64,000 nucleotides of DNA from Haemophilus parahaemolyticus (GCF_938021905.1 NZ_CALIFA010000030.1:22483-86482), one strand, 5' to 3'. Numbered from the stretch's first letter, positions 1 through 13,331 are shown. Program-made: numbers and translations. The notes: generated from the sequence alone by a model not told the origin.

Positions 1-40
1 TGATTAAATTCTAATAAATCATTCATGATACTATCCAATA

Positions 41-68
41 TAAAATAGAAGAGGCATATACCTCTTCT
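41..68 (-). terminator. Rho-independent terminator closing the channel-WYL-glycine-zipper operon
   Basis: Hairpin agaagagg-catata-cctcttct (47-54 and 61-68), followed on the minus strand by a T-run (plus-strand aaaa, 42-45). It lies 10 nt downstream of the stop codon of the 79..1263 gene. Confidence 0.6.
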
Positions 69-78
69 ATTTATTCTA

Positions 79-1263
79 TTATTTATTTCTAGCTAAAATA
101 ATTTTTTTCTTAAGTCCAAAAGCTTTAAAAAAAGTAGAGGCGAATGAAGATTCTGGCTCAACTTCTTCTTCATACAATTCTGTATATTCTGTCTTATTAG
201 CTCTTTGGAATGCTTCGCGTTTTGAAGAGGATAGAACATCGTCTCCTGTTTCATTCATTGTTGGTTCATAAACCAGCCCATTCAATACATATCGAAGTTC
301 ATAGTTAGCATAAACAATTGTTTTTTCATTATCAGATAAATCTTTAAAACGAACATCACGAGAAGCAATTCCCTGCAATTTAACTAATTGTTCATTAGCC
401 CAATATTCATCTAATGCTTTAAAAGTTGAATTACATTCTCTGGTATATTTAGCAATCGCATTTAATTTACTTACGACAACTTTTAATTTTTCCGCAGCTG
501 CTTCTACTTTCTTCCAGTTTTCATAGGCTTCTTCTTTTTTCTCTGCGGCTTTAGAAGCAAAGATTGAACCACCAATCGCAAGTAAAGGACCAGCCACTAA
601 ACCTCCCATTACTGCCATTCCGCCAGCCATACCCAAACCTCCAGAAGCTAAAGAACCACCACCAAGCCACGCTAATGTAGCATTAGTTGCCGCTGCACCA
701 GATAAGCCACTAATTGCAGTACCTGTGGATGCTGTTGCTAATGCTCCCACGCCTAAATACGCCCCACCACTCGCGGCTAAGCCAGCTAAAGAACCTGTTA
801 CTGCAGACGTTAAAGCATTTGTCATTTTTGCCATATCAACACGTTCAGCTCTAATTCTATTTTCAGCATCTTTAATGCTCATATTTTGATCAATAAGATG
901 AAGTTTTTTAAGAATTTGGATTTCTTCTTCCTTAGTAATCACAATACGTCCTAATTTTTCAGCCATATTTCGACCGATAGCTAATTGAGAACCTTTGCGT
1001 TCACCACCAGGATAACAAATTAAAGAATCAAACAAGTTGATATGTTCAATTCCCAATTTTTTAGTTTTCCCATAGTTTTCTAAACTAGATTGAGTATCTG
1101 ATTTTTGGCTTTCTAGCTTATTATTAGCCTCTTCAGCTTCTTGCTTAGCCCAACGCTGATAACGCTCTGCATCATCTAAATCATTCTTCGCATCTACGCC
1201 TTTTTTAACGCCAAATGCCCCTGCTGCAATAGCAGCTCCTGCAATAATAAATGGTAAAGCCAT
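79..1263 (-). CDS. Coiled-coil / glycine-zipper membrane protein of unknown function (394 aa)
   Basis: Strong SD (aggaga, 5 nt before the ATG). Short hydrophobic N-terminus (MALPFIIAGAAIAAGAFG). A charged helical region of about 125 aa, then about 90 aa of Gly/Ala/Ser/Thr-rich small-xxx-small repeats (GSLAGLAASGGAYLGVGALA...GGLGMAGGMAVMGGLVAGPLLAIGG), typical of glycine-zipper membrane segments. A charged C-terminal domain of about 150 aa follows. I recognise no family. It is the last gene of the AT-rich cassette. Confidence 0.7.
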   Translation of the reverse strand: MALPFIIAGAAIAAGAFGVKKGVDAKNDLDDAERYQRWAKQEAEEANNKLESQKSDTQSSLENYGKTKKLGIEHINLFDSLICYPGGERKGSQLAIGRNMAEKLGRIVITKEEEIQILKKLHLIDQNMSIKDAENRIRAERVDMAKMTNALTSAVTGSLAGLAASGGAYLGVGALATASTGTAISGLSGAAATNATLAWLGGGSLASGGLGMAGGMAVMGGLVAGPLLAIGGSIFASKAAEKKEEAYENWKKVEAAAEKLKVVVSKLNAIAKYTRECNSTFKALDEYWANEQLVKLQGIASRDVRFKDLSDNEKTIVYANYELRYVLNGLVYEPTMNETGDDVLSSSKREAFQRANKTEYTELYEEEVEPESSFASTFFKAFGLKKKIILARNK

Positions 1264-1299
1264 GATTATCTCCTATATAGCTTAGTGTTAATAAAATTG

Positions 1300-2190
1300 T
1301 TACTTCAGTTTCGTTAGATATAATTTCAAATTTTCATTCATCTTTTCTTGCAACTCCGCAGGACTGACAATCGTCAAATGTGGCACCCAATACTGCACTA
1401 ACGGCACAATTTCCTGCTCATTCACATTTTCACAAGAAAGTAACAAGCCACCGTCGTCTAATTTATGCACCAGTTTTTGGTTAGGCAGTAAATTTCGTCG
1501 TAAGAAATAATGGCTGACGGTGCTTTCTACTTTAATAATAATTTCTGCAAGTTGGTTTCCGTGGTAGAGGCTATCGCTTTGGCGGATTTCGTTTTGTAAA
1601 TTTTCATTCGGAATGAACCGCTCTTTTAATACAAGAAGATCGTGAATTTGGGTAAAACAGAAAGTTTTTTGTTTATTATTTTCTGTGCCGATTAAATACC
1701 AGATGCCGTTTTTATTTAATAAACTATAAGGCGAGATTTGATAATATTTGGTTTCTTGTGTACTGTTTTTAGTGTATTTAAAACTAATGTTTAAATTTTC
1801 TTTAATAGCATTATTTAGTGCGTCAAATTCTTTTTCTTTTCCACTAATATCTTCATATTGAAAGCCTTTAACTTGCACGCTTTGGGTGAGTTTTTCTTGG
1901 TAAAACTCGCGATCTATTTTGGGGAATAAATCGGCAATGCTTGCGAATAAGGCGAAGCGGCTAATATCCTCTTCGGTCAGGAAACCGGATTTTTGTTGAT
2001 TTATTTTGTAAAAACGACCGCCCTTTTCTTCCCATTCAAGGAAATTGAGGCGTTCGTTAATATCGCGTTGGAGGGTGCGGATCGATAAGCCAAATTCATC
2101 GGCAAGCAAAGTTATATCAAGGCGTTCACCTTGATTTAAGCGGGCTAAAATTTGACTTAGGCGTTGTGCCAGTTGTTGACTTCTTTTCAT
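1300..2190 (-). CDS. WYL-domain transcriptional regulator (HTH-WYL-WCX architecture, BrxR/CapW-like)
   Basis: N-terminal DeoR-type HTH (LSQILARLNQGERLDITLLADEFGLSIRTLQRDI). Central WYL motif (NGIWYLIGTENNKQKTFCFTQIHDLLVLKERF). C-terminal extension, 296 aa. Intergenic gaps of 60 nt and 36 nt to its neighbours, consistent with one operon. Confidence 0.8.
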   Translation of the reverse strand: MKRSQQLAQRLSQILARLNQGERLDITLLADEFGLSIRTLQRDINERLNFLEWEEKGGRFYKINQQKSGFLTEEDISRFALFASIADLFPKIDREFYQEKLTQSVQVKGFQYEDISGKEKEFDALNNAIKENLNISFKYTKNSTQETKYYQISPYSLLNKNGIWYLIGTENNKQKTFCFTQIHDLLVLKERFIPNENLQNEIRQSDSLYHGNQLAEIIIKVESTVSHYFLRRNLLPNQKLVHKLDDGGLLLSCENVNEQEIVPLVQYWVPHLTIVSPAELQEKMNENLKLYLTKLK

Positions 2191-2250
2191 TTGGATTCGT
2201 TGTTGGTTGTCAATGGCAATAAATTAACACATCTTTCTCAAAAAAGTACG

Positions 2251-3063
2251 TCAGGTTTTGTCGTTGGTAATTTTTATTTTTAATAATTGTTTAAGTTCGA
2301 TAATTTCTTGCTCAAGTGATTGCATTTTGTTTAATAATACTGCTTCTTCATCTTTCTCTTCTTTAACGCGAATTTCCCCTACGCAGTCCACAATAACACC
2401 AATGGCAATATTTAAGATAATGTAACTAGCAATCAATAGAAAGCTCACAAAAATAATCCAAGCGTGAGGGTGAACCTCCATTACAGAGCGAACAATGCCC
2501 ATTGACCAGCTTTCAAACGTCATTATTTGAAAGAGTGTGTAGAAACTATCGCCAATGGAGCCGAACCAATGTGGAAAGTCTTTGCCATAAAGATAGGTGA
2601 CAATAATGGCATATACGTAATACAGGTTGAGCAATAAAATGCAAATTCCTAGCATGGAAGGTAGAGTTTTAAATAAGGCTTGAGACACCATTCGCATTTT
2701 GGGAATGATGGAAATAAGGCGAAGTACTTCCACAATGCGAAAAGTACGAAAAACGAAAAAGATTTCACTTTCTAAAATAAGAGAGCTGGAAACAATGATG
2801 ATAAAGTCAAAAATATTCCACCCGCTTTTAAAGAAAGCGAGGCGATAGGTATATATTCGCAGTACAAGCTCGAATAAAAAGAGATAGGAAAAAATTTTAT
2901 CATAGAAGATTAAGCTGGAGTGATAATGACTTTCCGTCGGAAGCGAGAGATCGATGCCAATAATAATAGAATTTAGCACAATGCTGGTTAACACAAATTT
3001 ATAGAAATAATGGCTTTTAACGATTTTCTCGATCATTTTCCTCATCATACGCACTCTTTCCAT
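2251..3063 (-). CDS. Bacterial voltage-gated Na+ channel homologue (BacNav/NaChBac-like, Ion_trans superfamily)
   Basis: 270 aa, a typical BacNav length. S3 motif GWNIFDFIII. S4 voltage sensor with R every third residue (FRTFRIVEVLRLISIIPKMRMV, compare NaChBac RILRVLRVLRAISVVPSLRRLV). Pore/selectivity filter FYTLFQIMTFESWSMGIV (compare NaChBac FFTLFQVVTLESWASGVM). C-terminal coiled coil (EAVLLNKMQSLEQEIIELKQLL), as used for BacNav tetramerisation. The start codon is ambiguous: M1, M6/7 or M10; M10 has the best SD, gagga. Confidence 0.8.
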   Translation of the reverse strand: MERVRMMRKMIEKIVKSHYFYKFVLTSIVLNSIIIGIDLSLPTESHYHSSLIFYDKIFSYLFLFELVLRIYTYRLAFFKSGWNIFDFIIIVSSSLILESEIFFVFRTFRIVEVLRLISIIPKMRMVSQALFKTLPSMLGICILLLNLYYVYAIIVTYLYGKDFPHWFGSIGDSFYTLFQIMTFESWSMGIVRSVMEVHPHAWIIFVSFLLIASYIILNIAIGVIVDCVGEIRVKEEKDEEAVLLNKMQSLEQEIIELKQLLKIKITNDKT

Positions 3064-3089
3064 CTATTTAATCAGAAAAACGTTTGCAT

Positions 3090-3118
3090 TATACTTTAAA
3101 AGTATAGTGCAAGTATAG
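3090..3118. promoter_or_regulatory. Candidate operator in the divergent promoter region: palindrome TATACTTT-A-AAAGTATA plus a third AGTATAG half-site
   Basis: Perfect 8-bp inverted arms at 3090-3106, and a repeat of the half-site at 3112-3118. It sits between the channel operon (minus strand) and the XRE regulator (plus strand). Confidence 0.45.
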
Positions 3119-3183
3119 TCAGCCCTTTATGATAAAAACTGAATTTTTATAATTTCTCCATTGTAATTTTTGGGGGAATCCTT

Positions 3184-3534
3184 GTGTCAGAGAAACGACA
3201 ACAATTAATTTATACCATTGGGCAATCCATTGCGAAATATCGCCAAGCCGCAGGGTTAACACAAGCACAACTGGCTGAAATTTTAGGCATTGGTAATGAT
3301 GCAGTTTCTCGTATGGAACGAGGCACAACAACTCCGACTATCACTCGCTTGTTAGAACTCGCGGATATTTTTCATTGTGAAATTGCTGATCTCGTTACTG
3401 ATGCCAGCCATCGCCCAACTGATCAAGCTCGCCAATTAGAACGAATGCTTGCAAACCTTGATGATAATGAACGTTTTGAGCTATTGAGCCTTATTGAACG
3501 TATGCTGAAGTGGAAACATATGCACCATTTATAA
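3184..3534 (+). CDS. XRE-family (Cro/CI-type) HTH transcriptional regulator
   Basis: GTG start with a GGGGGA SD 7 nt upstream. HTH_XRE signature (QAQLAEILGIGNDAVSRMERGTTTPTITRLLELADIF) plus a C-terminal extension of about 50 aa. It is transcribed divergently from the channel operon. Confidence 0.8.
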   Translation: MSEKRQQLIYTIGQSIAKYRQAAGLTQAQLAEILGIGNDAVSRMERGTTTPTITRLLELADIFHCEIADLVTDASHRPTDQARQLERMLANLDDNERFELLSLIERMLKWKHMHHL

Positions 3535-3679
3535 CGTGCCTTTCCCATCATGGAAGTAATCTCTCGGCTTCTACATTCCTATTGATAACACTATTCCCAA
3601 TTTTTCCCACTATTTTTGGCAAATCAATCATATGCGTGTATGATACAGCTACTCTTTTGGTAATAAAGGAATTGATACA

Positions 3680-4333
3680 ATGAACAAACAACAAGTTTTA
3701 GACGCTTTTCATTTTCGTGCAGCGTGCCGTGCTTACGATCCTATTCGCAAAATTAGCCGTGAGGATATGGACTATATTTTGGAATTAGGTCGTCTTTCGC
3801 CAAGTTCGGTAGGTTCTGAGCCGTGGAAATTTTTAGTACTACAAAATGTGACAATTCGAGAGAAAATCGCACCTGTTTCGTGGGGCATTAAACACCCAAT
3901 GAATGAAATGAGCCATTTAGTGGTAATTTTAGCGAAGAAAAATGCCCGTTTTGATAGTGACTTTTTCCGCACTTCGCTTGAAAAACGAGGCTTAACGCCT
4001 GAACAGATGAGCGCAACGATTGCTCGTTATAAAACGTTTCAAACCGATGATATTCAAGTGTTAGAAAGCGAACGGACTTTGTTTGATTGGTGTAGTAAAC
4101 AGACCTATATTGCATTAGGTAATATGATGACAGGGGCAGCACTGATTGGCATTGATTCCTGTCCAATTGAAGGATTTAGTTACCCTGAAGTGAATCGTAT
4201 TCTAGCCGAAGAGGGGTTATTCGATCCGAATGAATGGGGCGTTTCTTGTATGGTTACTTTTGGTTATCGTGCCAAAGAAATTAAGAAGAAATATCGCAAG
4301 CCTACTGAAGAAGTGATTGAGTGGGTTGAGTAA
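3680..4333 (+). CDS. nfnB: NAD(P)H nitroreductase (NfsB/NfnB family)
   Basis: 217 aa. The nitroreductase fold shows N-terminal and C-terminal similarity to oxygen-insensitive NAD(P)H nitroreductases. Confidence 0.7.
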   Translation: MNKQQVLDAFHFRAACRAYDPIRKISREDMDYILELGRLSPSSVGSEPWKFLVLQNVTIREKIAPVSWGIKHPMNEMSHLVVILAKKNARFDSDFFRTSLEKRGLTPEQMSATIARYKTFQTDDIQVLESERTLFDWCSKQTYIALGNMMTGAALIGIDSCPIEGFSYPEVNRILAEEGLFDPNEWGVSCMVTFGYRAKEIKKKYRKPTEEVIEWVE

Positions 4334-4346
4334 GGAAATTGTACAG

Positions 4347-4374
4347 AAAAGCGGTCAAAAATGACCGCTTTTTT
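4347..4374. terminator. Bidirectional terminator formed by an inverted pair of uptake signal sequences
   Basis: aaaaGCGGTCAaaaaTGACCGCtttttt: a perfect hairpin flanked by an A-run and a T-run, between nfnB (plus) and sspB (minus). Confidence 0.75.
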
Positions 4375-4380
4375 ACTTAT

Positions 4381-4797
4381 TTATTTTACCAACTTCAAAT
4401 GTGTTGGTTTTTTCTTCACGATTTTTTTCGGTTTCTCTTCTTCCGATTTTTTAGCAGTACGAGCAAGATAACTTTCTTCGCTGTAATATTCTTCCTCTTG
4501 GAACATTGTGCCGTCACCTGTTTCTTGAGCATAAAGTGCTTCAGCTGCACCAAATGGAACGTACAAATCGCGAATCATTCCTTGAAATCTCGCACTAAAT
4601 GAAATGCCTTCATCATCTACCACATAATTACCAATGGAACGTGGCGAAATGTTTAAGATGATTTTTCCATCGCGGATAAACTCAATCGGTACATCCACAT
4701 CAGGATAATCGCAATTAACCAACAAATAAGGAGTGCTGTTGTTATCGCAAATCCAACTGTAATAAGCGTAATAAATATAAGGGCGTAATGGTTTCAT
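4381..4797 (-). CDS. sspB: Stringent starvation protein B (ClpXP adaptor)
   Basis: 138 aa. Conserved SspB N-terminal domain, and it lies immediately downstream of sspA. Confidence 0.85.
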   Translation of the reverse strand: MKPLRPYIYYAYYSWICDNNSTPYLLVNCDYPDVDVPIEFIRDGKIILNISPRSIGNYVVDDEGISFSARFQGMIRDLYVPFGAAEALYAQETGDGTMFQEEEYYSEESYLARTAKKSEEEKPKKIVKKKPTHLKLVK

Positions 4798-5441
4798 TAA
4801 TCTTTATCATCCATTAAATGTTTAGGGGCTGCACCGCCCACAGATTGCATAAAACTATCGCGTTTAAATACGCGGTTCATATAGTTTTTCACAGGTTTTG
4901 CCGCAGGACCAGTAAATTCTACGCCTAAGTTAACCATACGCCAGAGTAATGGGGCAATATAACAATCAGCTAAACCAAACTCTTCACTCATAAAATAAGG
5001 CATCGCATCAAAAACAGGGGCTAATGCTAAAATCTCTTCACGAAGTTGAGCTAATGCTTTTTTACCTTGGGCTGAAGCGGGATCTTTATTTACGATATCA
5101 ATTAAAGAATACCAATCTTGTTCAATACGGAACATGGTTAAACGGCATTTCGCACGTAAAACGGGATAAACAGGTAAAAGTGGCGGATGAGGAAAACGCT
5201 CATCAAGATATTCCATAATGATGCGAGAATTGAATAATACTAAATCGCGATCAACCAATGTCGGCACGCTACCGTATGGATTTACTTCCATTAAATCTTC
5301 CGAAATAGCATCTGGCGTGATATTTTCAATTTCATAAGGCACAGCTTTTTCTGCTAACACGATGCGAACTTGGTGGCTATAAATATCACTTTTTTCTGAA
5401 AATAAGGTGGTTACCGAACGTTTATTTGCACTACTCGTCAT
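4797..5441 (-). CDS. sspA: Stringent starvation protein A (GST-like)
   Basis: 214 aa. GST-fold SspA signature, and the conserved sspA-sspB pair. Confidence 0.9.
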   Translation of the reverse strand: MTSSANKRSVTTLFSEKSDIYSHQVRIVLAEKAVPYEIENITPDAISEDLMEVNPYGSVPTLVDRDLVLFNSRIIMEYLDERFPHPPLLPVYPVLRAKCRLTMFRIEQDWYSLIDIVNKDPASAQGKKALAQLREEILALAPVFDAMPYFMSEEFGLADCYIAPLLWRMVNLGVEFTGPAAKPVKNYMNRVFKRDSFMQSVGGAAPKHLMDDKD

Positions 5442-5583
5442 TTATCTTTCTCCAATAATTCAAGCACATTAAATCTGCTAAAAATAGTAGCGTATTGTAG
5501 CATAACAGCTTGATAAAATCACAGGTTTTATTTTTTGTACTTTTTGGGGAAAGGACGATAAAATCTCACCGCTTGAAAAAGCA

Positions 5584-5599
5584 AAGCAACCGTTTGCTT
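5584..5599. promoter_or_regulatory. PurR-box-like palindrome upstream of purE
   Basis: AAGCAACCGTTTGCTT, against the PurR consensus core ...GCAAACGTTTGC... It lies about 45 nt upstream of the purE ATG. Confidence 0.45.
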
Positions 5600-5644
5600 T
5601 TTGTGGTATCCTACGTAAAATTTTAATTCAAATAGAGAAAAAAT

Positions 5645-6142
5645 ATGACTAATAAAGCTGAAATTGCCATTGTTATGGGCTCTAAAAGTGACTGGGCAAC
5701 GATGAGCGAAGCAACCCAAATTTTAGACCAATTTTCGTTACCTTATCACGTTGAAGTGGTTTCTGCTCATCGTACGCCAGATAAACTGTTCACTTTTGCG
5801 GAAAATGCAGAAAAAAATGGCTATAGAGTGATTATTGCAGGTGCTGGCGGTGCGGCTCATTTACCAGGGATGATTGCAGCGAAAACGATTGTACCTGTGC
5901 TTGGTGTGCCAGTAAAAAGCTCTACGCTAAGTGGGGTTGATAGCCTCTACTCTATCGTGCAAATGCCAAAAGGCATTCCCGTTGGTACACTAGCAATTGG
6001 CCCTGCAGGTGCTGCTAATGCGGGTTTATTAGCCGTTCAAATTCTTGCTGCGTTTAATCCTGAGCTTGCTCAAAAACTCCACGCTTTTCGCCAAGCTCAA
6101 ACTGAGCTCGTGCTAAATAATCCTGATCCACGAGTAGAATAA
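5645..6142 (+). CDS. purE: N5-carboxyaminoimidazole ribonucleotide mutase
   Basis: 165 aa. The PurE fold ([16 protein letters not shown]) is conserved. Confidence 0.95.
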
Positions 6143-6144
6143 AT

Positions 6145-7110
6145 ATGGCAAAACGATTGCTCATTTTACACACGGGCGGTACGATCTCGATGAAGGAAGG
6201 CGAAAATGGTAAAGTATCGCCTTCAGCTCGTAATCCATTGTTAGATGCGTTAGAACGCCTTAATCACCCTGCTGAATTACATCAAGAATCTGTTTTTAAC
6301 GTGCCTTCTCCACACATCACGCTCGATCACTGGCTTGTACTAAAATATCGTATTGAAAAAGCAGCCAATGAAGAACATTTCGATGGCATCGTGATTACTC
6401 ACGGTACAGACACGCTTGAAGAAACAGCTTATTTTCTTGATTTAGCCCTCAATATCAACGTGCCTATTGCTATTACTGGAGCAATGCGCTCAAGCAATGA
6501 ACTCGGTTCAGACGGGTTAATTAACTTGCAAAGTGCTATTTTGGTGGCATTAAGCGAGGATTCGAAAGGCAAAGGCGTATTGGTGGTCATGAATGATGAA
6601 GTCCATCACGCAAAATTTGTGACCAAAACGCACACCACTAATGTGGCAACGTTCCAAACACCTACTTTTGGACCTTGCGGATTGATTACTAAAAACAACG
6701 TAATCTATTTCCAAAAATTAACCGCTTACGAAAGTTTCCCAGTGCAAAAAATTACCAAAAATAATATTCAATTAGTTAAAGCCTATGCGGGAATGGATAG
6801 CTTTTTGCTCGAGCAGCTTGCCCATCACGGCTGCGATGGTGTGGTAATTGAAGCTTTAGGCGCGGGCAATCTTCCGCCAACTTCACTTAAAGGCTTGCAC
6901 GCATTACTTGAAGCAAATATTCCTGTGGTGCTCGTATCACGAGCTTTCCACGGTGTAACTCAAGATGTATACGACTATCTTGGTGGAGGTAAAGAACTCA
7001 AGCAACAAGGGGTGATCTTTACTACAGGTTTAAGCGGACAAAAAGCACGCATTAAATTGTTGGTTTTACTCAACCAACAACGCGAAAAACCACTTTCTCA
7101 CTATTTTTAA
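6145..7110 (+). CDS. Type I L-asparaginase-like protein, inserted between purE and purK
   Basis: 321 aa. N-terminal nucleophile motif LHTGGTISM and the HGTDTLEETA motif characteristic of the asparaginase/glutaminase family. It starts 2 nt after the purE stop. Confidence 0.7.
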   Translation: MAKRLLILHTGGTISMKEGENGKVSPSARNPLLDALERLNHPAELHQESVFNVPSPHITLDHWLVLKYRIEKAANEEHFDGIVITHGTDTLEETAYFLDLALNINVPIAITGAMRSSNELGSDGLINLQSAILVALSEDSKGKGVLVVMNDEVHHAKFVTKTHTTNVATFQTPTFGPCGLITKNNVIYFQKLTAYESFPVQKITKNNIQLVKAYAGMDSFLLEQLAHHGCDGVVIEALGAGNLPPTSLKGLHALLEANIPVVLVSRAFHGVTQDVYDYLGGGKELKQQGVIFTTGLSGQKARIKLLVLLNQQREKPLSHYF

Positions 7111-7131
7111 CTCTGATTTAGGTTCACGATT

Positions 7132-8238
7132 ATGAAAAAAACGATGCAAACTCAAAGCACAATCTACCCTCCTATTTATGTGCTTGGCAACGGACAATTA
7201 GGCAGAATGCTACGTTATGCGGGGGCACCACTGGATATTGATGTTATCCCTCTCGCCTTTGATGCACCTGTCTTTGAACTGGCAGAAAACGGCATTATTA
7301 CCGCAGAAATCGAACGTTGGACAGATACACCGCTAACGCAGCTGCTTAGCAATCACAAAAACTTCGTGAACCTCAATGTGTTTGGGCGATTAGCCGATCG
7401 TTTCACGCAAAAATCATTACTTGATCAGCTTCATCTTTCTACTTCGCCTTGGCAATTACTAGAAAGCCCTAATCAATGGGAGCAAGTTTTCCAAAATATT
7501 GGTGAAAAAGTCGTGGTTAAACGCCGTACTGGTGGCTACGACGGACGAGGACAATGGATTGTCACCAAAGAAAATATCGAACAAATCACACCAGATCTGT
7601 TTGGTGAAGTGATTGCGGAGAAATTTATTCCGTTCGATGGCGAGATTTCGATTGTTGGAGCAAGATTTAGAGATGGTTCAACCCGTTTCTACCCTATTAC
7701 TCATAACCTACAACAAAATAGTATTTTGCGTTACAGCGTGTCAGATGTTACGCTGCCTAAACAAGTGATTTTCCAACAACAAGCCGAACAAATGCTAGGC
7801 AGCATTATGCAAGAACTAGAATATGTCGGTGTAATGGCAATGGAATGTTTTGTAGTAGGTGATAAATTGCTCATCAACGAACTTGCTCCACGCGTTCATA
7901 ATAGTGGACATTGGACGCAACTAGGCTGTTCAATTTCTCAATTCGAATTGCATTTAAGAGCGCTATTAGATCTCCCAACGCCAGAACTCGAAACCACTGT
8001 ACCAAGTGTAATGGTAAATCTTATCGGCATTGAACATAATAATGAATGGCTAAATTTACCGTTCTCACAACTGCATTGGTATGGCAAAGAGGTTCGTGCG
8101 GGTCGCAAAGTGGGGCATATTAATCTCACCCATCCAGATAAAGCAGAGTTGATTAAATTACTCGAACAACTCCGCCCTGCTCTTACCGAAGATTTTAATT
8201 CTGGATTGGATTGGGTAGTTGAAAAATTGAGAGTATAA
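7132..8238 (+). CDS. purK: N5-carboxyaminoimidazole ribonucleotide synthase
   Basis: 368 aa. ATP-grasp PurK, with an N-terminus similar to E. coli PurK. Confidence 0.9.
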   Translation: MKKTMQTQSTIYPPIYVLGNGQLGRMLRYAGAPLDIDVIPLAFDAPVFELAENGIITAEIERWTDTPLTQLLSNHKNFVNLNVFGRLADRFTQKSLLDQLHLSTSPWQLLESPNQWEQVFQNIGEKVVVKRRTGGYDGRGQWIVTKENIEQITPDLFGEVIAEKFIPFDGEISIVGARFRDGSTRFYPITHNLQQNSILRYSVSDVTLPKQVIFQQQAEQMLGSIMQELEYVGVMAMECFVVGDKLLINELAPRVHNSGHWTQLGCSISQFELHLRALLDLPTPELETTVPSVMVNLIGIEHNNEWLNLPFSQLHWYGKEVRAGRKVGHINLTHPDKAELIKLLEQLRPALTEDFNSGLDWVVEKLRV

Positions 8239-8242
8239 AGAA

Positions 8243-8267
8243 AGAGCAGGCAAATGCCTGCTTTTTA
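8243..8267. terminator. Terminator hairpin after purK (abuts the tsaB 3' end)
   Basis: agcaggcaaatgcctgct followed by tttt. Confidence 0.6.
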
Positions 8268-8963
8268 TTACTGCTTATGCGGCAACTTCTTCCAAGTGAC
8301 TTCATTGCGTAAATAAACAGGTTCAATTTCATCTACTGATTTCACATTGCCTTTCTCAATTTCTTGTTCGGCTAAAGCAAGCATATATTTTGCTGAAGGC
8401 AAAGTAATTTCACTGATTACAAGCGGTAGATTCTGCTCGGCAAATTGCGGATAAGCAACCCAACCTGTGCCCACCACGGTAATCTTTTCGTCATCTAATT
8501 GAAACTGCTCTAACGCACGTTCTGGCGAGCAAACTTGCTCTTTTACTTTCTCCAGCCAACCGTTTTCGGTACGAATTAATTGCGCAAAATAGACCTCGTT
8601 CATTCTGGCATCAATTAAGGCAATCACTTCTGTTGCACCTAGCTCTTGATAAGCCTGCTCTGCCATTGTGGTCAGATTTGAAATCGGCACAACATCAAGT
8701 TCTGCACCCAGTGCCAGACCTTGAGCTACCCCCACGCCTACACGTACGCCTGTAAAACTGCCAGGGCCTCGACCGAAGACTAAATAATCCAACTCTTTGA
8801 TAGAAAGATGAGCATTTTTTAATAAACCATCTACCATCGGTAAAATGCGTTGCGTGTGTGTTCTTGGGCTAAGTTCATCTTCAAAAGTGATATTGCCTTG
8901 ATGCAACAAAGCCACTGAACAAGCTTCAGTGGCAGTATCTAAGGCGAGAAGGGTATGATTCAT
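8268..8963 (-). CDS. tsaB: tRNA threonylcarbamoyladenosine biosynthesis protein TsaB (YeaZ)
   Basis: 231 aa. N-terminus MNHTLLALDTATEACSVAL, typical of TsaB/YeaZ. Confidence 0.85.
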   Translation of the reverse strand: MNHTLLALDTATEACSVALLHQGNITFEDELSPRTHTQRILPMVDGLLKNAHLSIKELDYLVFGRGPGSFTGVRVGVGVAQGLALGAELDVVPISNLTTMAEQAYQELGATEVIALIDARMNEVYFAQLIRTENGWLEKVKEQVCSPERALEQFQLDDEKITVVGTGWVAYPQFAEQNLPLVISEITLPSAKYMLALAEQEIEKGNVKSVDEIEPVYLRNEVTWKKLPHKQ

Positions 8964-8980
8964 TCTAAACTCTCTAATTT

Positions 8981-9053
8981 GTACGTAGGGGCGGGGCTTA
9001 TCCCTGCCCTTATAAAATGAAAATAGGACGGGGATAAACTCCGTCCTTACGAT
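8981..9053. repeat. Inverted pair of a REP-like approximately 28-nt stem-loop element
   Basis: 8981-9009 gtacgtaggggcggggcttatccctgccc is the reverse complement of a family member. 9026-9053 ggacggggataaactccgtccttacgat is a direct copy. A third copy lies at 22582-22609. Confidence 0.6.
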
Positions 9054-9068
9054 TTAATGCTTTAAAGA

Positions 9069-10151
9069 TTATTTTTGATGTTTACGACGACGCTCTTCAA
9101 CCGCTTCTGCTAAAGCGAATAGTGCTTTTTCGCTATCTTCCCAGCTTATGCAACCGTCGGTGATGCTTTGTCCGTAAACTAAATCTTCAAGCGTTTGACC
9201 TGATTTCAGATCTTGGCGACCTTCCACTAAGTGGCTTTCGATCATCACGCCAGAAATTAAATCCGAACCGCCAGCAATTTGTTTGCAAACATCTTCACAC
9301 ACATCCATTTGGCGCTTGAACTGCTTACTGCTGTTCGCGTGGCTGAAATCCACCATTACGTGTGGACGATGACCTGATTTTTCGATCTCTGCACACACTG
9401 CCGCAACTGATTCTGCATCATAATTTGTACCTTTCTCCCCGCCACGTAAAATGATATGGCAATCCTGATTGCCTTCAGTCGAGACGATTGCTGAATGGCC
9501 AAATTTGGTTACCGACAAGAAATGGTGCGGTGATTCTGCTGAAGCAATTGCATCTAATGCAATTTTTACGCTGCCATTGGTACCATTTTTGAAACCTACT
9601 GCACAAGATAAACCAGAGGCTAATTCACGGTGTACTTGTGATTCTGTCGTACGAGCACCAATTGCCCCCCAACTCATAAAGTCTGCCATATATTGTGGCG
9701 TGATCATATCCAAAAATTCACCCGCTGCTGGCACGCCTAAATCATTAATATCTGAAAGTACTTTACGACCTAAACGCAAACCATCGTTTAATGCGTAAGT
9801 TTCGTTCAAATATGGGTCATTGATTAAGCCTTTCCAGCCCACAGTAGTGCGTGGTTTTTCGAAATACACACGCATCACCACTTCAAGATTTTGATTAATT
9901 TTTGGATTTGCACGCATTGTTTTAATTCGATCAGCATATTCAAGTGCAGCTTTGGGGTCGTGGATCGAGCAAGGCCCAATCACCACTAATAAGCGATCAT
10001 CTGCACCGTGAATAATTCTGTGAATTGCTTGGCGTGTTTTTTCCACTGTTTCTGCTGCAAAATCGCTTGCAGGAAAACGCTCTAATAAAGCAATCGGTGG
10101 TAAAAGTTGTTCAATATTTTTAATACGAAGGTCATCATTTTTGTAAGACAT
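9069..10151 (-). CDS. aroG: 3-deoxy-7-phosphoheptulonate (DAHP) synthase, class I
   Basis: 360 aa. High similarity across the whole length to AroG/AroF/AroH. The gene_symbol aroG is provisional; the isozyme (AroG-, AroF- or AroH-type, i.e. which feedback inhibitor) cannot be told from sequence here. Confidence 0.85.
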   Translation of the reverse strand: MSYKNDDLRIKNIEQLLPPIALLERFPASDFAAETVEKTRQAIHRIIHGADDRLLVVIGPCSIHDPKAALEYADRIKTMRANPKINQNLEVVMRVYFEKPRTTVGWKGLINDPYLNETYALNDGLRLGRKVLSDINDLGVPAAGEFLDMITPQYMADFMSWGAIGARTTESQVHRELASGLSCAVGFKNGTNGSVKIALDAIASAESPHHFLSVTKFGHSAIVSTEGNQDCHIILRGGEKGTNYDAESVAAVCAEIEKSGHRPHVMVDFSHANSSKQFKRQMDVCEDVCKQIAGGSDLISGVMIESHLVEGRQDLKSGQTLEDLVYGQSITDGCISWEDSEKALFALAEAVEERRRKHQK

Positions 10152-10224
10152 TGTGTTCTCTCTTGTTGTGTTATGAGTAAGTGGCTATAAAGGTAGTGTA
10201 ATCAAATTAAAATGTCAAACACTT

Positions 10225-10244
10225 TGTACTATTATAGTAGTACA
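10225..10244. promoter_or_regulatory. TrpR-operator-like palindrome upstream of DAHP synthase
   Basis: TGTACTATTA|TAGTAGTACA, a 9/10 palindrome. GTACTA half-sites at 18-bp span, as in E. coli trp/aroH operators (GTACTAGTTAACTAGTAC). It lies 74-93 nt upstream of the start codon. Confidence 0.4.
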
Positions 10245-10352
10245 AAATTACTTTGATTAGTAAAATTTATACAAGTGGCATAAATAAGCGGTGATTCTAA
10301 CAAGATTTTTTGCAAAATACTCAGCAAAAATCGCCGCTTGTTTCTACCAACG

Positions 10353-13331
10353 TTACATAATTTCACGCTTACCGCGTTTATCTGGTGAAGACAAAATCCC
10401 CTCGCGTTCCATCTGGTCTAAAATACGTGCTGCACGGTTAAAACCTAAACGAAGATGACGTTGCAAACCACTAGCCGAAGTAATGCCTGTTTCTTGTACA
10501 AAAGCAACTACCTCATCAAAACGCTCATCTAAATCGCCACTACCGCCCGTCTCTCCTACCTCTTCATCGGCAGGCGACTCCAAAATACTCTCAATATATT
10601 CTGGCTTGCCTCGTGCTTTCCAGTTATCCGCCACATTCACGACATCATCATCGCTCATATAAGCCCCATGTACACGTACCAACTCTGGGCTACCTGCTTT
10701 GGAATAAAGCATATCGCCTCGACCTAGCAAATTTTCTGCACCAATGCTATCTAAAATAGTGCGAGAATCGTAAGGGCTTGCTACCGTAAACGCAATACGG
10801 CTTGGAATATTCGCTTTAATCACGCCTGTAATGACATCGGTTGATGGGCGTTGCGTTGCCAAAATTAGATGGATACCAATTGCACGTGCTTTTTGTGAAA
10901 TACGCATAATGTATTCTTCCACCTCTTTGCCTGCGGTCATCATCAGATCAGCAAACTCATCCACCACCAAAACAATGTAGCTGAGTTTGCCCAACGCAGG
11001 CGGCATTTTATCCATTGAATCGCCCTCTTTCCAACTTGGATCCGCAATTGGCATTCCCATTGCTTCAGCTTCATCAATTTTATTATTGTAGCCTGTAATA
11101 TTACGCACATTTAAATGAGTCAGTAAAGTGTAGCGACGCTCCATCTCATCTACTGCCCAGCACAAGGCATTTGCCGCCTTTTTCATATCGGTTACCACTG
11201 GCGTTAGCAAGTGTGGAATATCGTTATACACCGAAAGTTCAACCTGTTTCGGATCAATCATAATCAAGCGAACTTGTTCAGGTGTGAGCTTATAAAGCAA
11301 GCTCAAAATCATTGTATTGATCCCAACCGATTTACCGCCCCCCGTTTGTCCTGCCACAAGCAAATGTGGTGTATCCACCATATCCATAATCACAGGTTTA
11401 TTCGCCAAATCTTTCCCCAAAATCATCGGCAATTTGGCTTCGGTATAACGGAATTCATCGCTTGCGATCAAATCTCGCAACCACACAATTTCACGATGTG
11501 GATTCGGTACTTCAATGCCCATATAAGGCTTACCTGGCACCACATCGGTAATACGAATGGTAGACATCATTTCACGAGCTAAATCACTCGCTAAAGAGGT
11601 GATTTTTGCCGCTTTTACCCCCACTGCGGGTTTAATTTCGTAACGGGTTACCACAGGCCCCACTAATACATCTTCAACCGTTGCTTTTACGCCATAGTTT
11701 GCCAATGCAGTTTCAATGCGGCGAGATGTCGCAATAATTTCTCCTTCTGTCATCTGCTGACCACTTGGTTGATGCTCTTCCAATAAATCTAATGTGGGTA
11801 ATGGGGTTGTTGGTTTTTCCAATTTTTTACTGCCTTGCAATAATGGATGAATTAAGGTTTCGCCATAGCCACCTCGGGGATAGTCGGGGGGGGTATTCCC
11901 TTCCACTCCCACCGTTGCTTTTAATGGCGTTGTAAATTTTGATGGCGTAGGTTCTGTGCGAATTTGCACATTAGTTGGTAAAGTCGTTTCAAAATGGCTT
12001 GAACCTTCCGTAATCTTATTAAAAGTATGCTCTAAGCCTACCGCTTTTGCTCGAGCCTCAAGTTCTGCTAAACGCTGGCGTTCCATTTCCGCAAACTCAC
12101 GTTCACGAATCGCATCAAAATCTTCATCTTGCTCTTCGCTTTCTTCCGTCTCCGCCATCACTTTAATCACAGGTGACGATTGCATAAAATGCGGCATTTC
12201 AGGCTCAAATGCCACTTGCTCAGCCATATCAAGTTCAGGATCTTCATTTACTAAACGCACACTAATTTGGGGTTGCACAGTCGAATTTGCGAGATTTTCT
12301 GCAAAATCCACCGCTTGTTCTACGCTCTCCGCTTGTGGTTCAATCGGATTTAAACGCACTTTGGGTAGTTCAACATTCAACCCAATCTTATTTTCGGTTT
12401 TGGCTGGCAGCACTTCCGTTTCAATCTCAGGTAAATTAATTTTCGGCAGTGGAAGCTCTGTATGAATATCGGCAGGATTAAACAAATGCATCTCCGCTGT
12501 TTCCACAACCATCGTTGGCTTCATTTCAGAAGAAGGCTCAGCGGAAACCTTTTCAATAGAAGAAGATTGATGTAGCCCACTGATATTTGGGCGTTTAAAT
12601 ATTGTAAGATCTGTTAACTGTTCACCTATCGAAATGACAGTGTCTACATGCTCGTCTGTTGGTTCTTCAGCTGCAAGCGGTGAGTTTTCACTACCTAATT
12701 GCAAATCATCTTCGGTTGGCTTAACTTCGGCTACGGATTTAACTTGCAAAGGTTTTTCTTCCGCTGTAGCATCTTTCGCATTTACCCAATCATAGAAATG
12801 AATTAATAATGGAATAAGGGTTTGACCTGAGCAGAAATAGAATCCAGTTACAGTCAACAACATTGCCACGAACAAACCACCGAATTGTCCGATATGCTCA
12901 CTCATCAAGCCTTGACTCATCGCCCCTACAAAACCGCCCGCCAGATAATTCGGCGTGTTCGATAAAATCGTATTCGCTAAGCCTGCCAAACCAATCATCA
13001 GCATAAAAAAGCTCAAACTACGGAGCAAAAGGCCTTTCAAGGTTGCATTTGCTGCCCCTTGTGTGAGTAACATATAAGCAGAAAATCCCGTTAAACTAAA
13101 CGGCAAGAGAAATGCCACTTTGCCAAAAAAAGCATAAAGCAAATCGATCATCCATGCCCCAAACACCCCCGTTTTATTTAACGGCTCACTCGTAGCGGTA
13201 CTCGCTACCGACCACGCATTATCTAACGGGCTATAACTTGCCCAAGCGAGAATAAGATAAATCCCAAACAAGCCACAAAAGGCAAAAAGAAAATTAAAGG
13301 CGGTTTCTTTTCCTTTAAGTCGTCTAATCAC
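10353..13331 (-). CDS. ftsK: DNA translocase FtsK
   Basis: 992 aa. N-terminal multi-TM region, a long Pro/Glu-rich linker, then the C-terminal motor with Walker A (GQTGGGKS) and the gamma domain. Confidence 0.95.
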   Translation of the reverse strand: MIRRLKGKETAFNFLFAFCGLFGIYLILAWASYSPLDNAWSVASTATSEPLNKTGVFGAWMIDLLYAFFGKVAFLLPFSLTGFSAYMLLTQGAANATLKGLLLRSLSFFMLMIGLAGLANTILSNTPNYLAGGFVGAMSQGLMSEHIGQFGGLFVAMLLTVTGFYFCSGQTLIPLLIHFYDWVNAKDATAEEKPLQVKSVAEVKPTEDDLQLGSENSPLAAEEPTDEHVDTVISIGEQLTDLTIFKRPNISGLHQSSSIEKVSAEPSSEMKPTMVVETAEMHLFNPADIHTELPLPKINLPEIETEVLPAKTENKIGLNVELPKVRLNPIEPQAESVEQAVDFAENLANSTVQPQISVRLVNEDPELDMAEQVAFEPEMPHFMQSSPVIKVMAETEESEEQDEDFDAIREREFAEMERQRLAELEARAKAVGLEHTFNKITEGSSHFETTLPTNVQIRTEPTPSKFTTPLKATVGVEGNTPPDYPRGGYGETLIHPLLQGSKKLEKPTTPLPTLDLLEEHQPSGQQMTEGEIIATSRRIETALANYGVKATVEDVLVGPVVTRYEIKPAVGVKAAKITSLASDLAREMMSTIRITDVVPGKPYMGIEVPNPHREIVWLRDLIASDEFRYTEAKLPMILGKDLANKPVIMDMVDTPHLLVAGQTGGGKSVGINTMILSLLYKLTPEQVRLIMIDPKQVELSVYNDIPHLLTPVVTDMKKAANALCWAVDEMERRYTLLTHLNVRNITGYNNKIDEAEAMGMPIADPSWKEGDSMDKMPPALGKLSYIVLVVDEFADLMMTAGKEVEEYIMRISQKARAIGIHLILATQRPSTDVITGVIKANIPSRIAFTVASPYDSRTILDSIGAENLLGRGDMLYSKAGSPELVRVHGAYMSDDDVVNVADNWKARGKPEYIESILESPADEEVGETGGSGDLDERFDEVVAFVQETGITSASGLQRHLRLGFNRAARILDQMEREGILSSPDKRGKREIM

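What the first reader, a model, noticed from the sequence alone, without database searches (positions are those of the whole stretch)
41..3534. AT-rich four-gene cassette coupling a voltage-gated Na+ channel, a WYL regulator and a glycine-zipper membrane protein
Three genes on the minus strand look like a single operon (60-nt and 36-nt gaps, one terminator at 41-68): a NaChBac-type voltage-gated sodium channel, a WYL-domain HTH regulator and a 394-aa coiled-coil/glycine-zipper membrane protein. An XRE-family regulator is transcribed divergently across a palindromic operator. WYL regulators are best known as sensors that gate defence and stress islands (CBASS CapW, BREX BrxR, DriD, PafBC). I know of no described system in which a WYL protein sits inside an operon with a canonical BacNav channel. 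The arrangement suggests a conditionally expressed membrane-depolarisation module, perhaps an abortive-infection-type phage defence or a stress-triggered growth arrest. The cassette is compositionally distinct (see the separate finding) and sits at the edge of otherwise core sspAB/pur genes.
Basis: partly seen in the sequence, partly recalled or inferred. Interest (0 to 1): 0.88.

Follow-up and report, generated by a model that had tools for sequence, protein, structure and literature searches.

The report
Sodium channel inside a defence-cassette control region
A Haemophilus parahaemolyticus hotspot carries a swappable, phage-defence-type gene cassette whose control region has captured and kept a voltage-gated sodium channel, a pairing I found described nowhere, although its function is untested.

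Summary
The four genes are real and correctly identified, but the window edge cuts the operon. An identical contig shows it runs channel, WYL, 394-aa protein, then a 497-aa BnzB (Bunzi) homologue, an 86-aa CxxCxxCC protein and a 219-aa protein, ending before pheS. The "terminator" at 41-68 is an internal hairpin.

The locus (nitroreductase to pheS, H. parahaemolyticus) is a recombination hotspot. Its cassettes have a regulatory head, a swappable body and a conserved 219-aa tail.

WYL plus a glycine-zipper or Bunzi-like body recurs across Pasteurellaceae, Cardiobacterium and Neisseriaceae. This is an ordinary WYL-regulated defence-type cassette.

The channel is not a partner of the glycine-zipper protein. 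It belongs to one XRE-WYL head lineage, sampled in three sub-lineages. It sits exactly between the XRE-linked palindrome and the WYL-linked inverted repeat. That head precedes at least four different bodies at two chromosomal sites, and three of these four body types also occur without a channel.

The channel is under purifying selection. It has an intact TFESW filter and a derived Arg-to-Glu change at the third S4 gating charge, absent from all free-standing relatives examined.

Most likely it is a co-regulated accessory that collapses the sodium and membrane potential. A hitchhiker role is not excluded.

The parts
1..26 (-). First 26 nt of the next operon gene, a 497-aa BnzB (Bunzi) homologue that runs off the left edge of the window
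   Evidence: L010 is 100% identical to window 1-11263. There the gene starts at L010 11238, which equals window position 26. It matches PADLOC BnzB at E 3.8e-137.
43..72 (-). Internal hairpin followed by a U-tract, between the 394-aa gene and the BnzB-like gene. It is a likely attenuator or mRNA-stabilising element, not the end of the operon.
   Evidence: The stem has 12-13 bp, dG -18.1 kcal/mol and z = -4.15. A hairpin of different sequence occupies the same intergenic position in the Aeromonas locus L006 and the Glaesserella locus L007.
79..1263 (-). 394-aa membrane protein with long helices and a central Gly/Ala-rich zipper. It belongs to the PDC-M09A family and resembles LeoC. It is the first gene of the swappable body.
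   Evidence: PADLOC PDC-M09A, 6.5e-25. At least 5792 homologues were found. Its paralogues in L011 hit the C-terminal part of PADLOC LeoBC. The AF2 model has pLDDT 62 and pTM 0.61. There is no Pfam or PDB sequence match.
1300..2190 (-). wHTH-WYL-WCX transcription regulator, the last gene of the head. The body-swap junction lies 10-16 nt before its stop codon.
   Evidence: Pfam WYL 7.9e-11, WCX 7.6e-06, HTH_11 6.2e-05. PADLOC WYL 1.5e-26. A family profile hits PafBC at 8e-11 and DriD-type chains at about 2e-4 in the PDB.
2249..2263 (-). Inverted repeat CGACAAAACCTGACG, overlapping the channel stop codon. It is the putative WYL operator.
   Evidence: The motif yGACA-N5-TGTCr lies 57-100 nt upstream of the WYL start (-202 in L027) in 22 of 25 loci, with or without XRE or the channel. 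It is also present in L121.
2251..3063 (-). BacNav-type voltage-gated cation channel (probable start at 3048, 265 aa). The selectivity filter is TFESWSMG. The S4 reads R-x-x-R-x-x-E-x-x-R.
   Evidence: Pfam Ion_trans 1.3e-38. NavAb 3e-63 over the full length. Alignment A1. Against the L011 copy, pN is 0.098 and pS 0.77.
3084..3112 (.). Palindrome TTGCATTATACTTT/AAAGTATAGTGCAA, the putative XRE operator. Its channel-side arm contains a perfect TATAAT (3088-3093, minus strand) reading toward the channel.
   Evidence: The core TAkACyTnnAArkTmTA is present in 13 of 15 XRE-bearing loci and in 0 of 10 XRE-less loci.
3184..3534 (+). XRE-family (HTH_3) regulator, transcribed divergently. It forms the outer end of the head.
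   Evidence: Pfam HTH_3 1.4e-15. PADLOC HTH_VI 9e-11 and capH 8e-08. NCBIfam RstR-family repressor 2.5e-14, below the family cutoff.
3535..3612 (.). Left boundary of the variable region. Homology between strains carrying different heads resumes at about 3612, just upstream of the nitroreductase gene.
   Evidence: In blastn of L010 against L031 and L032, the shared flank ends at L010 7652, which equals window position 3612.

Best explanation
Window 1-3612 is the head and first body gene of a seven-gene accessory cassette. It sits in a recombination hotspot between a nitroreductase gene and pheS in Haemophilus parahaemolyticus.

The cassette has three modules:
- Head: a divergent XRE gene, then the channel, then WYL.
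- Body, which is swappable. Here it is Bunzi-like: the 394-aa LeoC/PDC-M09A-like membrane protein, a BnzB homologue and a small CxxCxxCC protein.
- Tail: a conserved 219-aa gene.

Shown here:
- WYL-regulated Bunzi-like and dynamin-like bodies are widespread.
- The channel is a lineage-specific insertion between the XRE-associated palindrome and the WYL-associated inverted repeat.
- The channel is inherited with the head through at least three diverged lineages, two chromosomal sites and four body types.
- The channel is under purifying selection and carries a derived R3-to-E change in its voltage sensor.

Inferred:
- XRE, bound at the palindrome that overlaps the channel-ward -10 hexamer, and WYL, bound at its inverted repeat, keep the operon at a low level.
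- A phage or DNA-damage cue relieves this control, so the channel and the membrane-acting body are made together.
- Being voltage-gated, the channel opens once the membrane is partly depolarised by phage entry or by the body proteins. It then lets Na+ in and collapses the sodium and membrane potential of a Na+-dependent bacterium. This reinforces an abortive or growth-arrest outcome regardless of which body is installed.
For: Architecture:
- L010 is identical to the window and shows the full operon.
- BnzB hit at 3.8e-137. PDC-M09A hit at 6.5e-25.

WYL-body synteny:
- It is seen in L001-9 and in most of 13 GTDB species loci (L017-L029) from Pasteurellaceae, Cardiobacterium, Stenoxybacter and Neisseria.

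Hotspot:
- Ten places share the identical SspB protein. Five have the XRE-channel-WYL head. Five have a WYL-only head at 63-65% identity. Four cargo types appear among them.

Same head, different bodies:
- Bunzi-like-1: window, L034, L036.
- Bunzi-like-2, at a second locus between sprT and a Na+/H+ exchanger gene: L011-13.
- Dynamin plus a HerA-like ATPase: L035, L043.
- Three Dynamin_N GTPases: L042.
- In strains with the same head and a different body, homology stops 10-16 nt before the WYL stop codon.

Third head lineage:
- L121-123 (channel 77% identical) keep the order XRE, palindrome, channel, inverted repeat, WYL.

Selection and sequence:
- pN 0.098 against pS 0.77 for the channel, similar to XRE and WYL.
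- Glu at R3 is found only in the three head-borne lineages. Arg is kept in the 10 free-standing relatives in the alignment, NavAb among them. The nearest outgroup, P0124, is in a non-WYL context.

Operator co-occurrence.

Published background:
- WYL regulators of this type co-localise with diverse defence systems and bind inverted repeats near their own promoters (PMC9122601, read).
- Bunzi is a validated defence system thought to survey the membrane (bioRxiv 10.1101/2022.05.11.491447, read).
Against: - No experiment or expression data bears on any step.
- Three of the four body types seen behind the channel head also occur with channel-less heads (L001-5; L031/33/38, L018, L020, L027; L028). 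The channel is therefore dispensable for the bodies.
- The channel-bearing head was found only in H. parahaemolyticus and two close, unnamed lineages.
- In 66 environmental BacNav loci the neighbours are housekeeping genes, with no WYL or HTH family among the 25 most frequent. There is no general link between BacNav channels and defence.
- The channel has no PADLOC match.
- The inverted repeat between the channel and WYL suggests that WYL and the body may have their own promoter. Co-transcription with the channel is therefore not proven.
- The closest solved WYL relatives by sequence (PafBC, DriD) are activators, so the sign of regulation is unknown.
- The window cassette lacks the TerB component that defines BnzA.
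- The effect of R3-to-E on gating is unknown. It could even disable voltage sensing.
Confidence: 0.5

Rival explanations
1. Hitchhiker. The channel is an ordinary accessory Na+ channel, used for ion homeostasis or sodium-motive-force tuning. It happened to insert behind the XRE-side promoter and is carried along because it lies inside a frequently recombining head. It plays no part in what the cassette does.
For: Three of the four body types work without it. The channel-bearing head has a narrow taxonomic range. More distant Pasteurellaceae homologues sit in housekeeping contexts (L014-16; L124). Generic BacNav channels have no defence neighbours. Purifying selection would also act on a useful but unrelated channel.
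Against: The channel has stayed in exactly the same slot, between the palindrome and the inverted repeat, in three lineages that have diverged to 77-84% protein identity. It moved with the head to a second chromosomal site. Its pN equals that of XRE and WYL. It carries a lineage-specific R3-to-E change, which suggests specialisation after capture. About half of the sampled strains lack it, so it is not needed for core physiology.
Confidence: 0.25
2. Sensor. The channel reports the membrane depolarisation or ion flux caused by phage genome injection. It passes that signal to the membrane-associated body proteins (Bunzi-like or dynamin-like), through Na+ influx or by direct contact. It is not itself the killing step.
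For: Every body found behind this head is membrane-associated: TerB, glycine-zipper or LeoC-like proteins, BnzB, and dynamin-family GTPases. Bunzi was proposed to survey the membrane. A voltage sensor with an altered S4 could be tuned to a different threshold. Its position at the front of the operon fits a component that must be present before the trigger.
Against: A sensor should be needed by the bodies, yet three of the four body types occur without it. No domain or extension that could contact partner proteins is visible relative to free-standing homologues. If the palindrome represses the channel promoter, the sensor would be absent before infection.
Confidence: 0.1
3. Membrane-stress or repair cassette. 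The whole head-body-tail family serves envelope and membrane homeostasis, in the manner of tellurite-resistance TerB proteins, dynamin-like membrane repair proteins and ion channels. Its resemblance to defence systems reflects shared building blocks, not anti-phage function.
For: TerB and bacterial dynamin-like proteins have stress and membrane-repair roles (established knowledge). The window's own gene set fails the Bunzi definition because it has no TerB/BnzA. PDC-M09 and PDC-M40 are only candidate systems. The cassette contains no nuclease or other classic immune effector.
Against: The strain-to-strain swapping of bodies at a hotspot, the WYL and XRE control, the strong BnzB match and the LeoA/LeoBC-like bodies are all hallmarks of defence loci (PMC9122601). 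In Glaesserella a JukA homologue shares the operon and an integrase fragment lies next to the cassette.
Confidence: 0.15

Closest known systems
BrxR / CapW-type wHTH-WYL-WCX regulators of defence systems (PMC9122601; CapW, PMC11662680); more distantly DriD and PafBC
   Same: The domain order HTH-WYL-WCX is the same. The gene sits at the upstream end of a defence-type operon. A conserved inverted repeat lies just upstream of the regulator gene. The same regulator lineage fronts many unrelated cargo systems.
   Different: By sequence, the nearest solved relatives are PafBC and DriD-type proteins, not BrxR or CapW. Here the regulator is paired with a divergent XRE gene. In one lineage an ion-channel gene lies between the two regulators. 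The ligand and the sign of regulation are unknown.
Bunzi defence system (BnzA + BnzB; Millman et al., bioRxiv 10.1101/2022.05.11.491447)
   Same: The 497-aa gene immediately downstream, partly in the window, is a strong BnzB homologue (3.8e-137). A membrane protein precedes it. Related cassettes carry a TerB gene.
   Different: No protein here matches a BnzA model. The window cassette has no TerB domain at all. The membrane partner belongs to the PDC-M09A/LeoC-like family. Extra CxxCxxCC and 219-aa genes, two regulators and a channel are attached.
Eleos (LeoA/LeoBC dynamin-like) defence system
   Same: Alternative bodies behind the same head are dynamin-family GTPases with weak LeoA/LeoBC matches. 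The glycine-zipper paralogues match the C-terminal membrane part of LeoBC.
   Different: The matches are weak (1e-5 to 1e-11). The window's own body has no GTPase.
NavAb / NaChBac bacterial voltage-gated sodium channels
   Same: The protein aligns over its full length at 39-55% identity with free-standing BacNav channels (39% to NavAb in alignment A1). It is a single 6-TM subunit. The filter is T(L/F)ESWSMG. R1, R2 and R4 of S4, the counter-charges in S2 and S3, and a C-terminal coiled coil are all present.
   Different: The third S4 gating arginine is glutamate. The gene is accessory and embedded in a defence-type regulatory head, not in a housekeeping context.
RexAB of phage lambda and other depolarising abortive-infection effectors (e.g. 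CRISPR-associated membrane pores such as Chp1, bioRxiv 10.64898/2026.08.05.743128)
   Same: The proposed outcome is the same: loss of membrane potential through an ion-conducting membrane protein made or opened during infection.
   Different: There is no sequence or fold relationship. Those effectors are opened by a protein partner or a ligand, not by voltage. The similarity is functional analogy only, and it is inferred.

Membership tests
BacNav (NaChBac/NavAb) voltage-gated sodium channels | Single-domain 6-TM Ion_trans subunit that aligns over its full length to solved BacNav channels | tested here: met
   Pfam Ion_trans 1.3e-38 over residues 18-234. NavAb chains at 3e-63 over residues 10-267.
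BacNav (NaChBac/NavAb) voltage-gated sodium channels | Selectivity filter T-x-E-S-W with the conserved Glu | tested here: met
   The filter reads TFESWSMG. It is identical in the standalone Pasteurellaceae homologues P0125 and P0146 ([Actinobacillus] muris P0214 has TFDGWSSG). NavAb has TLESWSMG.
BacNav (NaChBac/NavAb) voltage-gated sodium channels | S4 with four arginines at every third position (R1-R4) | tested here: not met
   The S4 reads FRTFRIVEVLRL. R1, R2 and R4 are present and R3 is Glu. The same holds in P0122 and P0123. The 10 free-standing relatives in the alignment, NavAb among them, keep Arg.
BacNav (NaChBac/NavAb) voltage-gated sodium channels | Voltage-dependent, Na+-selective conductance | not testable with these tools
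   This requires electrophysiology.
wHTH-WYL-WCX regulators (BrxR/CapW/DriD/PafBC) | N-terminal wHTH, central WYL and C-terminal WCX domains | tested here: met
   Pfam HTH_11 6.2e-05 (23.2 bits, just below the 25-bit gathering cutoff), WYL 7.9e-11, WCX 7.6e-06. The family profile hits PafBC at 8e-11 and DriD-type chains at about 2e-4.
wHTH-WYL-WCX regulators (BrxR/CapW/DriD/PafBC) | Inverted-repeat operator next to its own gene | tested here: inconclusive
   A conserved yGACA-N5-TGTCr motif lies 57-100 nt upstream of the WYL start in 22 of 25 loci. Binding was not tested.
wHTH-WYL-WCX regulators (BrxR/CapW/DriD/PafBC) | Co-localisation with diverse defence systems | tested here: met
   The same WYL lineage fronts Bunzi-like, PDC-M40B-containing, JukA-containing and dynamin/LeoA-like cargo.
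Bunzi | BnzB homologue present | tested here: met
   PADLOC BnzB at 3.8e-137, covering model positions 116-481 of 504. Only the first 26 nt of the gene lie inside the window.
Bunzi | BnzA: a TerB-domain protein with transmembrane helices | tested here: not met
   The window cassette has no TerB domain, and the 394-aa protein has no BnzA hit. Relatives carry a separate 128-aa TerB gene, which also has no BnzA hit.
Bunzi | Protection against phage | not testable with these tools
   This requires plaque assays.
PADLOC candidate system PDC-M09 | PDC-M09A protein | tested here: met
   Models PDLC04407 (6.5e-25) and PDLC04406 (4.5e-23) match residues 129-284. The other components of this candidate system could not be checked. 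No paper mentions PDC-M09.
CapH/CapP-type XRE control of defence systems | XRE repressor paired with a CapP metallopeptidase | tested here: not met
   The XRE protein resembles capH over its full length (7.9e-08). No peptidase gene is present in the cassette.

The most novel reading that the evidence does not exclude
A canonical voltage-gated sodium channel has been recruited into bacterial immunity. It forms part of a portable regulatory head that can be placed in front of different membrane-acting defence bodies. There it converts a small infection-induced depolarisation into a full collapse of the sodium and membrane potential, or reports that depolarisation. Its voltage sensor has been retuned by the R3-to-E substitution. 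This would be the first physiological role of this kind for a BacNav channel, and the first voltage-gated component of a prokaryotic defence system.
Probability: 0.3. Interest if true: 0.85.

Novelty: new variant of a known kind. Interest (0 to 1): 0.62.

Why it matters
The natural function of bacterial voltage-gated sodium channels is poorly understood, even though they are the main structural models for eukaryotic Nav and Cav channels.

This locus provides natural matched comparisons. The same species and the same chromosomal site carry the same bodies with and without the channel. The head-borne channels also differ from free-standing ones by a defined gating-charge substitution. A role for membrane voltage in phage defence therefore becomes directly testable.

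Separately, the head-body-tail architecture has a sharp recombination junction at the 3' end of the WYL gene. It is a clear example of how regulators and effectors of defence systems are shuffled. It also links Bunzi-like, Juk-like and dynamin-type modules under one regulatory scheme.

Tried and rejected
- Single-sequence PDB searches found nothing for the 394-aa protein or for WYL. Only a 17-sequence WYL profile reached PafBC and DriD.
- The AF2 model of the 394-aa protein was of moderate quality (pLDDT 62, pTM 0.61; the zipper region scored below 50). Foldseek against the PDB gave nothing significant (best E 0.49). BDLP, ClyA and other long helical bundles appeared only at noise level. No fold assignment is claimed.
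- An exact lookup of the 270-aa channel ORF failed, because public gene calls use the downstream ATG.
- A literature search for PDC-M09 returned no papers. Searches combining BacNav, NaChBac, NavAb or voltage-gated terms with phage defence returned only an unrelated citation of NavAb.
- I tested whether BacNav channels in general neighbour WYL, XRE or defence genes. Of 80 metagenome loci, only the four H. parahaemolyticus ones do. The neighbours of 66 others are housekeeping genes such as Dxs, LepA and ABC transporters. The general link is rejected.
- I tested whether the channel is carried by phages or plasmids. There was one weak phage hit (30% identity), and plasmid hits below 43% identity on large marine plasmids. 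This is rejected.
- I considered the hairpin at 43-72 as the operon terminator and rejected it, because the next gene starts 17 nt after it.
- I tried to assign sigma-70 promoters. The consensus scan found no more sites than in shuffled sequence. Only the perfect -10 hexamer in the palindrome is noted, with a weak -35.
- An empty hotspot, with nitroreductase directly next to pheS, was not seen among the ten places returned.

Full report
**Observation**

- The channel matches Pfam Ion_trans (1.3e-38). It aligns end to end with NavAb structures (3e-63).
- The regulator has HTH_11, WYL and WCX domains. The divergent gene is an XRE HTH_3 protein.
- The 394-aa protein has no Pfam or PDB sequence match. 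It has a hydrophobic N-terminus, long helices and a Gly/Ala-rich hydrophobic core at about residues 150-240.
- The palindrome (3084-3112) and the hairpin (43-72, z = -4.15) are real.
- GC content is only mildly low: 0.362 against 0.396, ranking 7th lowest of 121 windows of 3.5 kb.

**The window edge truncates the operon**

A metagenome contig, L010, encodes the identical 394-aa protein and is 100% identical to window 1-11263. It extends the sequence 3.8 kb to the left.
- The next gene starts at window position 26, which is 52 nt after the 394-aa stop codon and 17 nt after the hairpin.
- The full operon is channel, WYL, 394-aa, 497-aa, 86-aa, 219-aa, followed by pheS.
- The 497-aa protein is a strong homologue of BnzB of the Bunzi defence system (PADLOC 3.8e-137).
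- The 86-aa protein has a CxxCxxCC domain (1.6e-08).
- The 219-aa protein has no family match.
- The 394-aa protein matches the PADLOC candidate family PDC-M09A (6.5e-25). Its paralogues in a related cassette match the C-terminal membrane part of LeoBC.
- The hairpin is internal to the operon. Hairpins of unrelated sequence occupy the same intergenic position in Aeromonas and Glaesserella relatives, so it is probably an attenuator or an mRNA-stabilising element.

**Organism and locus**

The exact SspB and WYL proteins are named Haemophilus parahaemolyticus in public records.

Ten places share the identical SspB protein, and the segment between the nitroreductase gene and pheS differs among them:
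- Five carry XRE, channel and WYL at 96-100% identity. Their bodies are a Bunzi-like body (L034, L036) or two dynamin-family proteins plus a 374-aa protein and a HerA/DUF87-like ATPase (L035). In L039 and L040 the contig ends before the body.
- Five carry a different WYL (63-65% identity) with no XRE and no channel. Their bodies are a second Bunzi-like type (L031, L033, L038) or a 391-aa GTPase (L032, L037).
- Every variant whose contig reaches that far (eight of the ten places, plus the window's own L010) ends with the 219-aa gene at 75-99% identity.

A further metagenome contig, L042, has the channel head followed by three Dynamin_N GTPases.

The breakpoints are sharp:
- The variable region begins 68 nt beyond the nitroreductase start, at about window position 3612.
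- In strains with the same head but a different body, homology stops 10-16 nt before the WYL stop codon.

The unit is therefore a head, a swappable body and a tail.

**WYL and the glycine-zipper protein**

The 394-aa family is large: at least 5792 hits in Haemophilus, Pasteurella, Glaesserella, Aeromonas, Vibrio, Pseudoalteromonas and Marinobacter.

Thirteen GTDB species loci were retrieved with the WYL protein, from Pasteurellaceae, Cardiobacterium, Stenoxybacter and Neisseria. In most of them, and in the loci found through the 394-aa protein, WYL is followed by:
- an optional TerB gene;
- a glycine-zipper protein;
- BnzB or a 544-aa PDC-M40B-like protein;
- a CxxCxxCC protein;
- often the 219/220-aa tail.

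WYL is often paired with a divergent XRE gene. That linkage is real, and it fits what is published for WYL regulators that front diverse defence systems (PMC9122601).

None of these 13 species loci contains a channel.

**The channel belongs to the head**

Channel-bearing heads were found in three lineages:
- the window type;
- P0122 (84% identical), which sits at a second chromosomal site between sprT and a Na+/H+ exchanger gene, in front of the other Bunzi-like body;
- P0123 (77% identical; short contigs that show XRE, channel and the WYL N-terminus).

The cassettes are mosaics. The window's body proteins are 89-95% identical to those of a channel-less cassette at a third locus (L001-5), whose XRE and WYL are only about 55% identical. 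The window's head is 77.5% identical at the DNA level to the P0122 head, and that similarity ends at the start of the 394-aa gene.

Three of the four body types seen behind the channel head also exist without a channel.

More distant Pasteurellaceae homologues sit in housekeeping contexts: H. paracuniculus (54%), Lonepinella (49%) and P0124 (56%).

In 66 environmental BacNav loci the neighbours are housekeeping genes. No WYL or HTH family appears among the 25 most frequent.

**Where the channel sits**

Two conserved DNA elements emerged from alignments of the heads.
- A palindrome with core TAkACyTnnAArkTmTA occurs in 13 of 15 loci that have XRE, and in none of 10 that lack it.
- An inverted repeat, yGACA-N5-TGTCr, lies 57-100 nt upstream of the WYL start in 22 of 25 loci (-202 in L027), whether or not XRE or the channel is present.

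In channel-less heads both elements share one intergenic region. In all three channel lineages the channel gene lies exactly between them:
- The palindrome's channel-side arm contains a perfect TATAAT reading toward the channel (window 3088-3093, minus strand).
- The inverted repeat overlaps or directly follows the channel stop codon (window 2249-2263).

By co-occurrence, the palindrome is probably the XRE operator and the inverted repeat the WYL operator. Binding was not tested. These counts include closely related loci, so they are not all independent events.

**State of the channel**

Between the window and P0122 copies, pN is 0.098 and pS is 0.77 (saturated). This is similar to XRE (dN/dS 0.12) and WYL (0.07). 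The channel has therefore been kept functional and has diverged in step with its neighbours.

Intact features:
- the selectivity filter (TFESWSMG);
- the S2 and S3 counter-charges;
- the S6 region;
- the C-terminal coiled coil.

One feature is derived. The third S4 gating arginine is glutamate in all three head-borne lineages, and arginine in the 10 free-standing relatives in the alignment, including NavAb. The effect on gating cannot be predicted from sequence.

**Most likely mechanism**

The architecture, distribution, selection and operator positions are shown by the data above. The following is inferred. The regulators hold the operon down. A phage or DNA-damage cue relieves this control. 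The channel and the membrane-acting body are then made together. The channel opens once the membrane is partly depolarised and dissipates the sodium and membrane potential. It thereby acts as a body-independent amplifier of an abortive or growth-arrest outcome.

Three rivals remain:
- a hitchhiking accessory channel;
- a depolarisation sensor that feeds the body proteins;
- a membrane-stress rather than anti-phage role for the whole family.

The facts do not separate these. The channel is dispensable for three of the four body types, yet it has been faithfully kept in one slot through three lineages, two loci and four bodies.

**Comparison with known systems**

The regulator is a member of the HTH-WYL-WCX family. 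Its nearest solved relatives by sequence are PafBC and DriD, which are activators, so the direction of regulation is open.

The body is Bunzi-like but fails the Bunzi definition, because it has no TerB/BnzA.

The alternative bodies resemble Eleos only weakly.

The channel is a BacNav member with a non-canonical S4.

Depolarising abortive-infection effectors such as RexB, or CRISPR-associated pores, are functional analogies only. I found no paper that links a BacNav channel to phage defence. The library searched is incomplete.

**Verdict**

- It is a WYL/XRE-controlled, variably present, defence-type cassette.
- It is not a three-gene unit.
- The channel is tied to the regulators rather than to the glycine-zipper protein.

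The WYL-plus-Bunzi-like part is a new member of a known kind. The channel-bearing head is a new variant that is worth testing. Interest is 0.62.

Noticed in passing
L012:9863-10753 and L033:11522-12411: The WYL gene is split by a frameshift in some strains (118+56 aa in L012; 106+190 aa in L033, which comes from NCBI assembly GCA_900450875.1). Cells therefore tolerate loss of the regulator. These strains are natural controls for derepression.
   Followed up: no
L007:4501-11547 (Glaesserella parasuis; also L008, L009): One XRE/WYL-headed operon combines a JukA homologue (DUF3944; PADLOC JukA 2.4e-59), a TerB gene, a glycine-zipper protein, BnzB and a CxxCxxCC protein. It lies next to an integrase fragment. 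Juk-like and Bunzi-like parts thus share one operon.
   Followed up: partly
L034:14683-16324 versus L010:12709-12911: One strain with the same head and body lacks the 86-aa CxxCxxCC gene through a deletion of about 200 bp. That gene is therefore dispensable, at least for persistence of the cassette.
   Followed up: no
L011:10795-12773: The second Bunzi-like body carries two tandem paralogous glycine-zipper genes (298 and 351 aa, 46-48% identical). Both match the C-terminal membrane part of PADLOC LeoBC. The following 544-aa gene matches PDC-M40B (1.4e-35) rather than BnzB.
   Followed up: partly
L010:13080-13739 (just left of the window); also L001, L011, L021, L023: A 219/220-aa protein with no family match closes these cassettes. 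This holds at three different chromosomal sites and behind different bodies. It is conserved (75-99% identity) in all hotspot variants that reach it. Its role is unknown.
   Followed up: partly
window:6145-7110: An asparaginase gene sits between purE and purK, interrupting what is usually an adjacent pair. The same arrangement is present in all related contigs examined.
   Followed up: no
window:1262-1291 (minus strand): The consensus scan reports a promoter-like site (TTAACA-18-AATCAT, 9 of 12 matches) in the 36-nt gap between WYL and the 394-aa gene, which is the body-swap junction. The scan as a whole found no more sites than expected by chance.
   Followed up: no
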